Source: Phycisphaerales bacterium
GTDB taxonomy: Bacteria; Planctomycetota; Phycisphaerae; Phycisphaerales; UBA1924
Length of the DNA stretch: 64,000 nt
Reading direction: 5' to 3'
Assembly (NCBI GenBank): GCA_044222255.1
Contig: JBGANP010000007.1
Span: 2,327 to 66,326 of the forward strand
This document shows, piece after piece, positions 22,359 through 25,684 of this stretch. The translations under genes were made by a program, and so were the position numbers. Numbering within the stretch: the first letter of the stretch is position 1; each line of letters begins with the position of its first letter. The notes below the pieces were generated by a model. It was not told the DNA's origin. It made no database searches and saw only the letters and a list, made by a program, of their open reading frames with translations.

Positions 22359-22901
22359 TCAGAACAGCTTCTGCTGGTCCTTCAGTTCCTTCGGCCGCGC
22401 ATCCAGATCGCGCAGCTCCTGCACAAACTGCCCCACATTCTCGAACTGATAGTGCTCGCTCGCGAACCGCACATACGCGACCTTGTCCAGCGCGGCCAGC
22501 TTCTGCATCACCCGCTCACCGATCGCGCTCGACGGCGCTTCCCGATCAAACTCGCGATACAACTCCTCCTCCACCTCATCCACCAGTTGCCGCTTCGCCT
22601 GCTCGGAAACCGGCCGCTTTCCGCACGCCGCCAGCACGCCCTTCAGCACGTTCTCCCGATTGAACGGCACCCGCGTCCCATCCCGCTTCACCACCATCAG
22701 CCGCGCCGTCTCCTCAACCTTCTCGTACGTCGTGAACCGCCGCTCGCACTTCAGACACTCGCGCCGACGCCGCACCACCCGCCCCCCATCGCTGGCGCGG
22801 CTGTCGATCACCTTGTCGTCGTTATGCCCGCAATACGGACAGATCACTTCGCGTACCTCATTGACCGCCCGCAGCAGCCGACAAGGCCGCAAGCAAGGCA
22901 T
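22359..22901 (-). CDS. nrdR: transcriptional repressor NrdR
   Basis: Zinc ribbon CPYCGHNDDKVIDSR...CLKCERRFTTYE plus ATP-cone. The start is ATG 22901 or an internal GTG near 22847. Confidence 0.88.
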   Translation of the reverse strand: MPCLRPCRLLRAVNEVREVICPYCGHNDDKVIDSRASDGGRVVRRRRECLKCERRFTTYEKVEETARLMVVKRDGTRVPFNRENVLKGVLAACGKRPVSEQAKRQLVDEVEEELYREFDREAPSSAIGERVMQKLAALDKVAYVRFASEHYQFENVGQFVQELRDLDARPKELKDQQKLF

Positions 22902-23155
22902 GGGTAGTGTCGCCGATCGGCGCGGCCGCGTCAAACAGGATTCTGCCTTCCGCACGGAGTGCGCACGATCGTTGACGGTGGCGCAGCGACGCTCTGGGAG
23001 CAAGCCACCGGTGCGCAGCCACCATTTCCCTTCTTTCTACTACTTTTCCGCCCGGCGGAGGGCGGACGACTTGGACGCCCAACGTGCCCGGGCATCACCA
23101 AACTAGAGTCAAACCTCACCAAACCCCCCTTTCCACTTTCGCCTATACTCCGCCC

Positions 23156-23206
23156 ATGAACGGCCAGACGACGACGACAACCACTCTCCCAGCACACAGC
23201 GGCTAG
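23156..23206 (+). CDS. candidate thrS leader peptide, MNGQTTTTTTLPAHSG
   Basis: ATG AAC GGC CAG ACG ACG ACG ACA ACC ACT CTC CCA GCA CAC AGC GGC TAG. Six consecutive Thr codons, 27 nt upstream of a terminator hairpin and 127 nt upstream of the thrS ATG. TATACT hexamer 6 nt before the ATG. Confidence 0.55.
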   Translation: MNGQTTTTTTLPAHSG

Positions 23207-23232
23207 CCGGCCCGCTGCCCCTCTGTCCTCCC

Positions 23233-23259
23233 AAAGCCCGGCACCACGCCGGGTTTTTT
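23233..23259 (+). terminator. intrinsic terminator / candidate attenuator upstream of thrS
   Basis: AAAGCCCGGC-ACCAC-GCCGGGTTTTTT (GC stem plus T6 tract). Confidence 0.7.
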
Positions 23260-23288
23260 CATTTCGCCCCGTACCATCCCGCCCCTCC

Positions 23289-23324
23289 GATTTGCCCTTT
23301 GCTATTTGCCCATTTGCTATTTGG
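23289..23324 (+). promoter_or_regulatory. ATTTGC-type short direct repeats in the thrS 5' UTR
   Basis: GATTTGCCCTTTGCTATTTGCCCATTTGCTATTTGG. The 11-mer TTTGCTATTTG occurs twice (23298, 23313), ending 9 nt before the thrS ATG. Confidence 0.35.
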
Positions 23325-23332
23325 ATCCCCCT

Positions 23333-25684
23333 ATGCCCCGCATCACCCTCCCCGATGGCTCCGTCAAAGAGTTCCCCGCACCCGTCACCGCTCGCCAGGT
23401 CGCCGAGTCCATCGGCCCGCGCCTCGCCATGGCCGCCGTCGGCGCCAAGATCAACGGCGAGATCCGCGACCTCAGCACCGTCATGTCCGATGACGCCGCG
23501 CTCGCCATCATCACTCCCACCACCCGCGACAAGAAGCCCGACCCGGATGCCCTCTTCCTCATCCGCCACTCCGCGGCCCACGTCATGGCCGAAGCCATCC
23601 AGCGCATCGTCCCCGGTGCGCAACTCGTCTACGGCCCCGCGCTCGAAGACAAGTTCTACTACGACATCAAGTTCCCCGACAACCGCCCGCTCAAAGACGG
23701 CGACTTCGCGGCCATCGAAGCCGAGATGAAGAAGATCATCGCGGAGGATCGGCCTTTCACCCGCTACGAAGTCAGCGGGCCAGATGGGCTCTCGCGATTG
23801 CAGCGAGAGGGAAACAAATACAAAGTCGACAACGCAGAAAAGGCACTTGGTCTCCCAAGCAGTGTCTACAAGTCCGCGGCCCCCGCGCCTGCCAAGAAGC
23901 CAATCACAATCGGAGATCTGGCATCTGCCGCCAAGGTTCATGCAGCAGACATCATCAAGCGGTTTTTTCTCCAAGGGGAACTCGCCACGGTCCACACCGT
24001 CCTCGACCACGAAAAGGCCCAACAGGTCGCCCGGGATCTCGGCATCACTCTCGATGGCGTGAAGCGCTCCGAAGATCTGTCCTTCTACGCCACCGGCACC
24101 CCCGGCCAAAACTGGGAAGACCTCTGCCGCGGCCCCCACGTCCCCAGCACCGGCCGCATCGGCGCCGTCAAAGTCATGTCCCTCGCCTCGAGCTATTGGC
24201 ACGGCGATGAAAACTCCGACCGCCTCACCCGCGTCTACGGCACCGCCTTCGCCACCCAAGCCGATCTCGACGCCTTCCTGAAGCAGAAGGAAGAGGCCTC
24301 CGCCCGCGACCACCGCGTCATCGGCAAGCAACTCCGTCTCTTCCACATCGATGAAACCGTCGGCCAGGGCCTCATCCTCTGGACCCCCAACGGCTCCATC
24401 ATCCGCAAGGAACTCCAGAACTTCATCGGCGCCGAGCTGCGCAAGCAGGGCTACACCGAGGTCTTCACCCCGCACATCGGCTCTCTCGACCTCTACAAGA
24501 CCTCCGGCCACTTCCCCTATTACAAAGACGCCCAGTTCCCGCCGATCATCGAGCGACAGACTCTCGACGCCCTCTGCGCCGATGGCTGCAGCTGCGCCGA
24601 CGTCATGCGCCGCGTCGAGGGCGTCTCCCAACGCCTTGCCGACGGCATCAACGAACGCACCAAGGCCACCACCATCGCCACCGACCGCATCATGCCCGAC
24701 GATCAACTCGTCCAAGGCTTCATGCTCAAGCCCATGAACTGCCCGCACCACGCCAAGATCTTCGGCTCCGCTCCGCACTCCTACCGCGACATGCCCGTCC
24801 GCCTCGCCGAGTTCGGCACCGTCTACCGCTGGGAGCAATCCGGCGAACTCAACGGCATGACCCGCGTCCGCGGCTTCACTCAGGATGATGCCCACCTCTT
24901 CTGCACCGAGGACCAGATCCCCGGCGAGATTCAGGGCTGCCTCTCCCTCGTCAAAACCATCTTCAACATCCTCGGCATGAAGGACTACCGCGTCCGCGTC
25001 GGCCTCCGCGACCCCGACTCCTCTAAGTACACCGGCGCTAAAGACAGTTGGGACAAAGCCGAAGCCGCCTGCATCGACGCCGCCAAGTCCCTCGGCGTTC
25101 CCTTCAGTCAGGAGCCCGGCGAAGCCGCGTTCTACGGCCCCAAGATCGACTTCGTCGTCAAGGACGTCATCGGCCGCGAATGGCAGCTTGGCACCGTGCA
25201 GGTCGATTACCAAATGGGAAACCGCTTCGACCTCTCGTACATCGGCCCCGACAACAAGCCCCACCGCCCCGTCGTCATCCACCGCGCCCCCTTCGGGTCC
25301 ATGGAGCGTTTCTGCGGCGTGCTCATCGAGCATTTCGCCGGCGCCTTCCCCACCTGGCTCTCCCCCGAACAGGTCCGCGTTCTTCCCATCAGCGAGAAGA
25401 CCATCGACTACGCCCGCACCGTCGAGGCCGCCCTGAAGTCCGCCGGCGTCCGCGTCTCCCTCGATGAGTCCAACGACCGCATCCAGGGCAAGATCAAGGT
25501 CGCCGCCGAAATGAAGATCCCCTACCTCCTCATAGTCGGCCCCCGCGACGCCGAGCAAAACGCCGTCTCCATCCGCATGCGCGGCACCGACAAAGACGCC
25601 GGCTCCATGCCGCTCGCCAACTTCGTCTCCGCCATCAGCGCAGAAATCGCCGAACGCAAGGCGGAACTCTCCGTCAAGCCATAA
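23333..25684 (+). CDS. thrS: threonine--tRNA ligase (with two lineage-specific insertions)
   Basis: MPRITLPDGSVKEF (TGS), RHSAAHVMAEAI (editing HxxxH), PMNCPHH, RVRGFTQDDAHLFC, class II core and anticodon-binding domain. ATG 23333. Confidence 0.95.
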   Translation: MPRITLPDGSVKEFPAPVTARQVAESIGPRLAMAAVGAKINGEIRDLSTVMSDDAALAIITPTTRDKKPDPDALFLIRHSAAHVMAEAIQRIVPGAQLVYGPALEDKFYYDIKFPDNRPLKDGDFAAIEAEMKKIIAEDRPFTRYEVSGPDGLSRLQREGNKYKVDNAEKALGLPSSVYKSAAPAPAKKPITIGDLASAAKVHAADIIKRFFLQGELATVHTVLDHEKAQQVARDLGITLDGVKRSEDLSFYATGTPGQNWEDLCRGPHVPSTGRIGAVKVMSLASSYWHGDENSDRLTRVYGTAFATQADLDAFLKQKEEASARDHRVIGKQLRLFHIDETVGQGLILWTPNGSIIRKELQNFIGAELRKQGYTEVFTPHIGSLDLYKTSGHFPYYKDAQFPPIIERQTLDALCADGCSCADVMRRVEGVSQRLADGINERTKATTIATDRIMPDDQLVQGFMLKPMNCPHHAKIFGSAPHSYRDMPVRLAEFGTVYRWEQSGELNGMTRVRGFTQDDAHLFCTEDQIPGEIQGCLSLVKTIFNILGMKDYRVRVGLRDPDSSKYTGAKDSWDKAEAACIDAAKSLGVPFSQEPGEAAFYGPKIDFVVKDVIGREWQLGTVQVDYQMGNRFDLSYIGPDNKPHRPVVIHRAPFGSMERFCGVLIEHFAGAFPTWLSPEQVRVLPISEKTIDYARTVEAALKSAGVRVSLDESNDRIQGKIKVAAEMKIPYLLIVGPRDAEQNAVSIRMRGTDKDAGSMPLANFVSAISAEIAERKAELSVKP

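What the first reader, a model, noticed from the sequence alone, without database searches (positions are those of the whole stretch)
23846..24070. IF2_N-like helical module inserted into the ThrRS N2/editing region, encoded by lower-GC DNA
Relative to E. coli ThrRS (ESYKVSILDEN...EEYVDMCRGPH), this protein carries a ~75-aa insertion between NKYKVDNAEKA and EDLSFYATG...WEDLCRGPH. Its core is ITIGDLASAAKVHAADIIKRFFLQGELATVHTVLDHEKAQQVARDLGITLD. This follows the pattern I recall for the IF2 N-terminal domain (PF04760, vrvyeLAkelgvsskelikklfklGi.v...ssLdeeeaell).

The encoding DNA visibly departs from local codon usage (aaa, caa, gga, gca, ttt codons and lower GC), which suggests a later domain acquisition. 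I do not know of an IF2_N-type module in an aminoacyl-tRNA synthetase.
Basis: partly seen in the sequence, partly recalled or inferred. Interest (0 to 1): 0.7.

Follow-up and report, generated by a model that had tools for sequence, protein, structure and literature searches.

The report
ThrRS carrying a captured IF2 domain
A threonyl-tRNA synthetase from an uncultured Phycisphaerae bacterium has a copy of initiation factor IF2's small ribosome-anchoring domain spliced into a surface loop of its proofreading domain, a domain combination not found in any other synthetase searched, and its function is still untested.

Summary
thrS (23333-25684, +) encodes a complete ThrRS of 783 aa. It has about 75 extra residues (aa 172-246) between the editing-site Lys164 and Asp263/Cys265.

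Residues 188-243 are a true IF2_N domain:
- Pfam PF04760 scores above its cut-off.
- A profile built only from IF2 sequences scores 74 bits.
- The AlphaFold model superposes at 1.2 Å on the IF2 N2 sub-domain (PDB 7UIU), which docks onto 16S rRNA helix h16.

None of the 120 nearest ThrRS carries the module. Neither does any hit among 1.84 billion representative proteins or 185,579 GTDB species. All other copies found lie in infB.

Contigs from independent metagenomes cross both junctions without a mismatch, so it is not an assembly chimera.

The site is a hypervariable loop, and the first 16 residues of the "insert" are a linker shared with relatives.

The low-GC3 tract is real, but it is shifted 5' of the module and also occurs in relatives that lack the module. 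It is therefore not evidence of foreign origin.

Function is inferred only. An auxiliary RNA or ribosome tether is most likely, and a tolerated passenger domain is the main rival.

The parts
23333..25684 (+). thrS coding sequence (783 aa plus stop). The domains are TGS, N2/editing (tRNA_SAD), class II catalytic core and anticodon-binding domain.
   Evidence: ORF. Pfam finds PF02824, PF07973, PF00587 and PF03129. The closest homologs are Phycisphaerae threonine--tRNA ligases at 63-87% identity.
23540..23845 (+). First half of the N2 editing domain (aa 70-171). It contains His79, His83 and Lys164, which correspond to E. coli H73, H77 and K156.
   Evidence: It aligns to 1QF6/1TJE residues 64-160. 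H79, H83 and K164 are invariant in the 48-sequence alignment. The E. coli numbering comes from my own recall of the sequence.
23846..23893 (+). Linker LGLPSSVYKSAAPAPA (aa 172-187), low in complexity. Its GLPSSVYKS start is shared with many related ThrRS, so it predates the module.
   Evidence: Loop alignment of 120 homologs. pLDDT is below 50 in both models.
23894..24061 (+). Captured module of the IF2 N2 sub-domain type (IF2_N), aa 188-243: KKPITIGDLASAAKVHAADIIKRFFLQGELATVHTVLDHEKAQQVARDLGITLDGV.
   Evidence: PF04760 matches aa 190-238. An HMM built only from IF2 sequences scores 74.4 bits on aa 188-243. The alignment to 17 IF2 N2 segments has no gaps. AF2 gives core pLDDT 72-88. Foldseek matches 7UIU and 7UNV at rmsd 1.2-1.3 Å.
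23933..23941 (+). Lys201-Val202-His203. These residues align with P. aeruginosa IF2 Ser277-Val278-Lys279, the main contact with 16S rRNA h16. Phycisphaerae IF2 has Gly-Val-Lys here.
   Evidence: HMMER alignment to 7uiu_x. Interface residues are taken from PMC9192638. Phycisphaerae consensus.
24062..24076 (+). Short return linker KRSED (aa 244-248), just before the conserved LSFYATG strand.
   Evidence: Loop alignment.
24077..24247 (+). Second half of the editing domain (aa 249-305). It contains Asp263, Cys265 and His269, which correspond to E. coli D180, C182 and H186.
   Evidence: D263, C265, R266, G267, P268 and H269 are invariant. PF07973 matches aa 261-302.
23747..23980 (+). Low-GC3 tract (codons 139-216, GC3 0.59). 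It overlaps the module but does not coincide with it.
   Evidence: Maximum-scoring segment, Fisher p = 1.3e-9. The same regional dip occurs in relatives that lack the module.

Best explanation
**What it is (shown).** A complete, syntenic, apparently housekeeping ThrRS has gained one extra folded domain. The domain is a diverged copy of the N2 sub-domain of initiation factor IF2, a three-helix module of about 50 residues. It sits between a flexible 16-residue linker and a 5-residue return linker. It lies in a surface loop of the editing domain that varies greatly among Phycisphaerae.

**Where it came from (inferred).** The source was an infB-type gene, most likely of planctomycete type. The module was inserted into a linker that already existed, and its surface then diverged quickly.

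[quoted passage not shown] On ThrRS it would act as an auxiliary RNA-helix-binding arm on a tether. It could hold the enzyme on or near the 30S subunit. Alternatively it could add affinity for a helical RNA partner, such as the tRNA acceptor arm or the enzyme's own mRNA. Aminoacylation and editing chemistry would be unchanged.
For: **Identity of the module**
- Pfam PF04760 matches above its cut-off.
- The only PDB sequence matches are to the N2 region of IF2.
- A profile built only from IF2 sequences scores 74.4 bits.
- The alignment to IF2 N2 segments has no gaps.
- The AF2 model has core pLDDT of 72-88.
- Foldseek's three best matches are IF2: the first is an integrative IF2 model, 9A4O, and the next two are the ribosome-bound P. 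aeruginosa N2 sub-domain. Probability is 1.00 and rmsd 1.2-1.3 Å over 49 columns.

**Not an artefact**
- Contigs from X1 and X2 span both junctions with 0 mismatches, at the same depth as the flanks.
- Contigs from X3 and X4 each span one junction.
- The insert is held in 10 runs from 8 studies.

**The enzyme is intact**
- All four ThrRS domains are present.
- His79, His83, Lys164, Asp263, Cys265 and His269 are conserved.
- Cys470, His521 and His650 are also conserved. By my own mapping these are the zinc ligands, E. coli C334, H385 and H511.
- nrdR lies upstream, as in relatives.

**Known function of the parent domain**
- N2 binds 16S rRNA h16 on the 30S shoulder (PMC9192638).
- It anchors IF2 on the 30S, reportedly independently of GTP/GDP and IF1 (PMC13345285).

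**Hints of retained or retuned RNA binding**
- Val202 is kept at the contact motif.
- Two lysines lie at the start of the module, where IF2 has the tail that wraps around h16.
- Net charge has moved to +1, plus 3 His, from a mean of -4 in 76 Phycisphaerae IF2 N2 domains.

**Origin**
- All 18 significant hits in the library of 1.84 billion representatives are IF2 or IF2-like fragments, except one stand-alone tandem protein.
- All 80 GTDB loci are infB of Planctomycetota.
- The insert is 40% identical to Phycisphaerae N2 and 33% to E. coli N2.
Against: - There are no functional data at all.
- The h16 contact motif Ser/Gly-Val-Lys has become Lys-Val-His, and Arg259 of the P. aeruginosa tail has no aligned counterpart.
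- Only 20 of the 36 positions that are at least 90% conserved in Phycisphaerae IF2 N2 are kept. Constraint for the original partner may therefore be lost.
- The module sits in a loop that tolerates unrelated inserts of 0-58 aa in relatives, so tolerance alone could explain it.
- It is known from a single near-clonal lineage, so purifying selection could not be measured.
- The full-length model was too poor to show where the module sits relative to the tRNA path. Its mean pLDDT was 70, and 39-55 in the insert.
Confidence: 0.4

Rival explanations
1. Tolerated passenger. The IF2 N2 coding segment landed by illegitimate recombination in an insertion-tolerant surface loop. It persists only because a small, independently folding domain does no harm there. 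It has no partner and no function.
For: - The loop is an indel hotspot. Loop lengths in the 120 nearest ThrRS run from 0 to 58 aa, with unrelated sequences that match no Pfam family.
- The module has diverged far from its family: 40% identity to IF2 N2, against 78% among IF2 N2 domains. This includes the rRNA contact motif.
- It is found in only one species-level lineage.
Against: - The alignment to IF2 N2 has no gaps, the hydrophobic core is kept and the fold is predicted with confidence.
- The substitutions go in one direction, with net charge moving from -4 to +1, rather than looking random.
- The allele is the only one seen for this organism across 8 studies.
- None of these points excludes neutrality.
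Confidence: 0.35
2. Protein-protein adaptor. [quoted passage not shown]
For: - E. coli IF2 N1, which belongs to the same Pfam family, binds NusA (PMC12297416).
- The top Foldseek hit is an integrative IF2-TagH model, 9A4O.
- The surface has been heavily remodelled relative to IF2 N2.
Against: - By sequence and structure the module matches N2, not N1. The PDB hits cover residues 314-362 of E. coli IF2 and 265-314 of P. aeruginosa IF2.
- The shift towards a more basic surface fits a nucleic-acid partner better.
Confidence: 0.12
3. Artefact. The insert is an assembly chimera between thrS and infB reads, or a mis-called reading frame.
For: - The protein cluster has a single member from a single contig.
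- No exact copy of the protein is on record in the contig index.
Against: - Independently assembled contigs from four different studies cover the insert and its junctions with 0 mismatches at even depth.
- Further runs hold it too.
- The frame is open and continuous with conserved ThrRS sequence on both sides.
- The module is at most 54% identical to any infB, so it cannot be mis-joined infB reads.
Confidence: 0.02

Closest known systems
IF2 N2 sub-domain (Pfam IF2_N, PF04760; PDB 7UIU/7UNV from P. aeruginosa; E. coli IF2 residues about 314-362)
   Same: The fold is the same three-helix module (rmsd 1.2-1.3 Å). The sequence family is the same. The length is the same, with no indels. A basic tail precedes the module, as in IF2.
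   Different: The host protein is ThrRS, not IF2, and the module is internal, not directly upstream of a GTPase domain. The rRNA contact motif SVK/GVK is KVH here. Net charge is +1 against -4. Identity to any IF2 copy is only 36-54%. Binding to h16 has not been tested.
IF2 N1 sub-domain (E. coli IF2N, residues 2-50)
   Same: It belongs to the same Pfam family and is a paralogous repeat within IF2. It acts as a tethered, independently folding interaction module on a flexible linker (PMC9192638, PMC12297416).
   Different: N1 binds NusA and is present only in the long IF2 isoform. The insert matches N2, not N1, in both sequence and structure searches.
Canonical bacterial ThrRS (E. coli 1QF6, S. 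aureus 1NYQ)
   Same: All four domains are present, and the editing and zinc residues are conserved.
   Different: There are about 75 extra residues in the N2 loop that corresponds to E. coli residues about 164-171. There is also a clade-wide 52-aa insertion in the catalytic domain.
Appended RNA-binding or interaction domains of other aminoacyl-tRNA synthetases (for example the Trbp111/EMAPII-like C-terminal domain of bacterial MetRS, or WHEP and lysine-rich extensions in eukaryotes). This comparison rests on established knowledge, not on tests made here.
   Same: The principle is the same: a small, autonomous, helical or OB-type domain is added to a synthetase core on a linker and contributes non-specific RNA affinity or new partners.
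   Different: Those domains are terminal extensions from other families. Here the added domain comes from an initiation factor and is internal to the editing domain. No literature on such a fusion was found.
Vertebrate ThrRS acting in translation initiation through 4EHP. This is from my own recollection of the literature and was not checked here.
   Same: It is a conceptual parallel: a ThrRS physically linked to the initiation machinery.
   Different: It works through a different, eukaryote-specific mechanism, and no homology is implied.

Membership tests
IF2_N (Pfam PF04760) | The sequence matches the family HMM at or above the curated gathering score. | tested here: met
   The whole protein scores 27.7 bits and the insert alone 32.2 bits, against a cut-off of 25.3. 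Profile positions 3-52 of 53 are matched. A local HMM built only from IF2 sequences scores 74.4 bits.
IF2_N (Pfam PF04760) | Compact fold of about 50 residues, β-α-α-β-α or three-helix, superposable on a solved IF2 N sub-domain. | tested here: met
   The AF2 model has a strand at 16-17, helices at 18-25 and 29-38, a strand at 48-49 and a helix at 51-60, with core pLDDT 72-88. Foldseek matches 7UIU and 7UNV_x with probability 1.00 and rmsd 1.2-1.3 Å. It also matches T. thermophilus IF2 4B3X/4B43 at rmsd 1.7-1.9 Å. This is a predicted model, not an experimental structure.
IF2_N (Pfam PF04760) | Located in the N-terminal region of IF2, with the N2 copy directly upstream of the G domain. | tested here: not met
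   The module is internal to ThrRS. All 80 related GTDB loci have HVDHGKT downstream, and this one does not. This concerns architecture, not domain homology.
IF2 N2 sub-domain (functional class: anchor to 16S rRNA h16) | Conservation of the h16-contacting residues (P. aeruginosa S277, V278, K279, R259). | tested here: inconclusive
   The aligned residues are K201, V202 and H203. No residue aligns to R259, but K188 and K189 lie at the start of the module (PMC9192638).
IF2 N2 sub-domain (functional class: anchor to 16S rRNA h16) | Binding to the 30S subunit or to h16. | not testable with these tools
   This needs co-sedimentation, EMSA or cryo-EM.
Threonyl-tRNA synthetase (class II, bacterial type) | Domain set of TGS, tRNA_SAD editing domain, class II core and HGTP anticodon-binding domain. 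| tested here: met
   PF02824, PF07973, PF00587 and PF03129 all score above their cut-offs.
Threonyl-tRNA synthetase (class II, bacterial type) | Editing-site and zinc-site residues are conserved (E. coli H73, H77, K156, D180, C182, H186; C334, H385, H511). | tested here: met
   H79, H83, K164, D263, C265, H269, C470, H521 and H650 are invariant across 48 aligned ThrRS. The mapping to E. coli numbers uses my recalled E. coli sequence, which agrees with the 1QF6 alignment ranges.

The most novel reading that the evidence does not exclude
This bacterial ThrRS is physically tethered to the shoulder of the small ribosomal subunit, at 16S h16 next to uS4, through an anchor domain captured from IF2. 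It would be a natural fusion showing that coupling a synthetase or its editing activity to the ribosome can be selected in bacteria. Because it would occupy IF2's own docking site, it could also link threonine charging status to initiation.
Probability: 0.15. Interest if true: 0.8.

Novelty: new variant of a known kind. Interest (0 to 1): 0.55.

Why it matters
Domain additions to aminoacyl-tRNA synthetases are well known in eukaryotes but rare in bacteria. Searches of the open-access full-text library found no report of an initiation-factor domain inside a synthetase.

The parent domain has one well-defined job, which is to dock IF2 onto helix h16 of the 30S subunit. The fusion therefore gives a sharp hypothesis that is cheap to test: does this ThrRS bind ribosomes? 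The answer bears on the long-standing question of whether bacterial synthetases ever work while attached to the ribosome.

If the module turns out to be inert, the case is still useful. It is a clean, datable example of domain capture in a hypervariable loop of an essential enzyme.

Tried and rejected
**Searches that found nothing**
- A word-index protein search with the insert alone gave no scoring hit.
- A search with the insert plus its flanks returned only insert-less ThrRS fragments.
- Exact-peptide scans of GTDB genomes and JGI metagenomes with the insert found nothing. The organism is therefore not among those records.
- The exact-protein contig lookup failed.
- Alignment A2 was too diverse to be used for a locus scan.
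- tblastn against the phage and plasmid collections found only infB-like matches in chromosome-sized or misfiled records. No mobile-element donor appeared.
- The window contains no second copy of the module and no infB.
- Rfam found nothing around thrS.

**Tests that could not be completed**
- A selection test (dN/dS) was not possible. Every run that holds the insert has it with 0-1 differences.
- No metatranscriptome holds more than 7% of the region's words.
- The full-length AlphaFold2 model was poor, so the module could not be placed relative to the tRNA path. Mean pLDDT was 70, and 39-55 in the insert, because the alignment was shallow and its members too similar.

**Ideas considered and dropped**
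- The P0004 loop (…KTISVADFAGHNGVVALQDAVAEF…) looked like a decayed IF2_N. Neither the IF2 N2 HMM nor Pfam supports this.
- Low GC3 might have marked a foreign module. This was rejected because the tract is offset from the module and is also present in relatives that lack it.
- A recent recombination tract from a donor of the "GLPSSVYKS" clade was considered. Amino-acid affinities do switch at about aa 146. However, third-codon positions against those relatives are saturated (0.31-0.45), and GLPSSVYKS may simply be ancestral. This remains unresolved.
- The heptamer AGATCTG occurs at both 23914-23920 and 24073-24079 (read). A repeat this short is expected by chance in 350 nt, so it was not treated as a junction signature.
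Full report
**1. What is there**

The + strand ORF 23306-25684 encodes a threonyl-tRNA synthetase. Homologs begin at MPRITL, so the real start is the ATG at 23333, giving 783 aa.

Pfam finds all four ThrRS domains: TGS at aa 3-61, tRNA_SAD at 261-302, the class II core at 461-668 and the anticodon-binding domain at 680-770. It also finds a fifth hit, IF2_N (PF04760), at aa 190-238. That hit scores 27.7 bits on the whole protein and 32.2 bits (E 9e-8) on the 75-residue insert alone, against a gathering score of 25.3.

Homology to solved ThrRS structures (1QF6, 1TJE, 1NYQ, 6VU9) falls into two blocks on either side of this segment.

**2. The module is an IF2 N2 sub-domain**

- *PDB sequence search.* Searching the insert against all PDB sequences gives significant hits only to IF2, and only to the region just before its G domain. 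These are E. coli 3JCJ residues 314-362 (E 5.5e-5) and P. aeruginosa 7UIU residues 265-314 (E 3e-4).
- *Exhaustive search.* An HMMER search of 1.84 billion representative proteins gave 18 hits at E ≤ 1e-3. All are IF2 or IF2-like fragments in which the module sits at the N2 position of IF2. The exceptions are one 142-aa protein with two tandem modules and one fragment with an unrelated C-terminus.
- *Alignment.* The insert aligns to these segments without a single gap.
- *Profile.* A profile built from the 17 IF2 segments, without the query, scores 74.4 bits on ThrRS aa 188-243. It finds nothing in the loop of any other ThrRS.
- *Structure.* AlphaFold2 run on the insert with this alignment gives a β-α-α-β-α module with core pLDDT of 72-88. 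Foldseek against the PDB returns IF2 as the top three matches: 9A4O, 7UNV_x and 7UIU. The last is described as "N2 sub-domain of IF2 bound to the 30S subunit". Probability is 1.00 and rmsd is 1.2-1.3 Å over 49 columns, at up to 41% identity. T. thermophilus IF2 (4B3X, 4B43) matches at rmsd 1.7-1.9 Å.

**3. It is real**

Logan contigs from four runs in four different studies (bioreactor, sludge and activated sludge) cover the region with 0 mismatches.

| Run | Region covered | Junctions crossed |
|---|---|---|
| X1 | 23642-24135 | both |
| X2 | 23713-24139 | both |
| X3 | 23630-24032 | 5' |
| X4 | 23852-24207 | 3' |

Depth is the same as in the flanking thrS sequence. The insert alone is held in 10 runs from 8 studies, including freshwater sediment, soil and wood decay. 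An assembly chimera is therefore excluded.

**4. It is lineage-specific and sits in a hotspot**

Among the 120 best ThrRS hits (63-87% identity, labelled mostly Phycisphaerales, Phycisphaeraceae or Planctomycetota), only the window's own protein carries PF04760.

In the alignment, the loop between the invariant Ala171 and Leu249 ranges from 0 to 58 residues in relatives and is 77 residues here. The longer loops in relatives are unrelated to each other and match no Pfam family.

Many relatives begin the loop with G[LM]PSSVYK[GS], as the window does. The net novelty is about aa 188-243 (nt 23894-24061) plus the short return linker KRSED.

A degenerate-pattern scan of 185,579 GTDB species found 201 relatives. 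The window's own peptides satisfy the patterns used. The best 80 loci are all Planctomycetota-type infB, by record title mostly Phycisphaerae. Each has HVDHGKT downstream. None is a ThrRS.

**5. Origin**

| Comparison | Identity |
|---|---|
| Insert vs 76 Phycisphaerae IF2 N2 domains (61 columns) | 40% on average, range 36-46% |
| Insert vs best tblastn segment | 54% |
| Insert vs E. coli and P. aeruginosa N2 | 33-34% |
| Phycisphaerae N2 domains vs each other | 78% |
| Phycisphaerae N2 vs E. coli N2 | 27% |

The insert shares several characters with the Phycisphaerae type: Pro before the first strand, FLQG, EKAQ and I-x-L-(D/E). A planctomycete-type infB is therefore the most likely source.

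No close donor exists in any collection searched, including phages and plasmids. Either the module evolved quickly after capture or the donor has not been sampled.

**6. Composition**

GC3 is 0.68 in the insert and 0.87 elsewhere in the gene (p = 5e-5). However, the maximal low-GC3 segment is codons 139-216 (23747-23980). It begins in conserved N2 codons and fades in the second half of the module, where 5 of 30 codons end in A or T (read from the printout).

Three relatives were fetched as DNA. They show the same regional dip at this loop although they lack the module:

| Relative | GC3 at the loop | GC3 elsewhere | p |
|---|---|---|---|
| L001 | 0.46 | 0.88 | 1e-16 |
| L002 | 0.79 | 0.92 | 0.002 |
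| L003 | 0.56 | 0.70 | 0.02 |

The dip is a property of this fast-turnover region, not a signature of the IF2 module.

The region is also phylogenetically discordant. Identity to P0003 falls from 98% (aa 101-145) to 40% (aa 146-180). Identity to P0091 and P0113 rises from 42-47% to 77-80% over the same boundary. At the DNA level no recent donor is visible, so the direction of change is unresolved.

**7. What the parent domain does**

In the P. aeruginosa 70S initiation complex, N2 (residues 266-312) is a three-helix bundle whose shape complements 16S rRNA helix h16 on the 30S shoulder. Ser277, Val278, Lys279 and Arg259 form the main interface, and the preceding tail wraps around the h16 minor groove (PMC9192638).

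A 2026 preprint shows the E. coli N2 domain docked in the h16 minor groove near uS4, in both 30S pre-initiation and 70S complexes. It concludes that N2 is the main stabiliser of IF2 on the 30S. It also cites earlier work reporting that this association is independent of GTP/GDP binding and of IF1 (PMC13345285). The paralogous N1 sub-domain binds NusA (PMC12297416).

**8. Likely mechanism**

*Shown:*
- ThrRS keeps all its catalytic, zinc and editing residues: H79, H83, K164, D263, C265, H269, C470, H521 and H650 are invariant.
- The gene is at the syntenic locus next to nrdR.
- It carries one extra, independently folding domain of the IF2 N2 type on flexible linkers.

*Inferred:* the module acts as a tethered RNA-helix-binding arm. 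It could hold ThrRS at the IF2 docking site on the 30S shoulder, or add affinity for a helical RNA such as the tRNA acceptor arm or the thrS mRNA.

*In favour:*
- The fold is preserved without indels.
- Val202 is retained in the contact motif.
- Lys188 and Lys189 lie at the start of the module.
- Net charge has shifted in one direction, from -4 (mean of the IF2 N2 domains) to +1 plus three His.

*Against:*
- The contact motif has changed from (S/G)-V-K to K-V-H.
- Only 20 of the 36 highly conserved IF2 N2 positions are kept.
- The host loop clearly tolerates arbitrary inserts.
- Only one near-clonal lineage is known, so selection could not be measured.

I put the functional-tether reading at about 0.4, a tolerated passenger at about 0.35, a protein-protein adaptor at about 0.12 and an artefact at about 0.02.

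**9. Comparison with what is known, and novelty**

As a domain, the module is a member of IF2_N: it meets both the sequence and the fold criteria. As an architecture it is not IF2. As an enzyme, the host is a canonical bacterial ThrRS.

Full-text searches for IF2_N/PF04760, for IF2N together with synthetase domains, and for ThrRS N2 insertions found no report of such a fusion. I therefore classify it as a new variant of a known kind: a synthetase with an appended domain, where the domain is itself from a known family.

Interest is moderate (0.55). The combination is unexpected and gives a sharp, testable hypothesis about a ribosome-tethered synthetase. Against that, it is confined to one lineage and its function is unproven.

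Noticed in passing
window 24563-24718 (ThrRS aa 411-462): There is a second insertion of 52 aa relative to E. coli ThrRS. It lies in the catalytic domain just before the zinc-ligand motif MNCPHH. It is present in all 48 aligned Phycisphaerae ThrRS, with invariant Cys419 and Cys421 (…LCADGCSCADVMRRVEGVS…). No Pfam domain covers it, and the full-length model is of low confidence in this part of the catalytic domain.
   Followed up: partly
window 23846-24076, and the equivalent loop in P0002-P0120: The N2 loop is an indel hotspot in this clade, with lengths from 0 to 58 aa in relatives. At least five unrelated insert types occur, for example in P0036, P0004, P0006, P0067 and the P0003/P0013/P0016 group. 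None matches a Pfam family.
   Followed up: yes
window 23747-23980; L001 and L002 at the aligned codons: A low-GC3 tract covers conserved N2 codons and the variable loop. It recurs in relatives whose genes are otherwise very GC3-rich (L001 0.46 against 0.88). It might reflect fast turnover or recombination, or a cluster of rare codons at a domain boundary. The cause was not determined.
   Followed up: partly
window about 23768 (ThrRS aa about 146): Phylogenetic affinity switches abruptly here. The N-terminal 145 aa are 87-98% identical to P0003 (85-95% at the DNA level against L001). Residues 146-180 are closest to a different group (P0091 and P0113, 77-80%). This suggests a mosaic gene or lineage-specific replacement of the loop region. 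The direction of change is unresolved.
   Followed up: partly
P0122 (142 aa, from the representative library): This is a short stand-alone protein made of two tandem IF2_N-like modules with no G domain. The module therefore also exists outside IF2 in at least one other context.
   Followed up: no
window 22359-22907 (- strand) and 22908-23332: An nrdR gene (zinc ribbon plus ATP-cone) lies divergently upstream of thrS, as in relatives L001 and L002. Those relatives also have a 77-79 aa ORF directly upstream of thrS. I did not identify an obvious counterpart among the ORFs listed for the window's 22908-23332 spacer, but the products were not compared.
   Followed up: partly
window 23914-23920 and 24073-24079: The heptamer AGATCTG occurs near the start of the module (coding G-D-L) and again just after it (coding E-D-L). 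A repeat this short is expected by chance in a region of this size, so it is not evidence of a junction.
   Followed up: no
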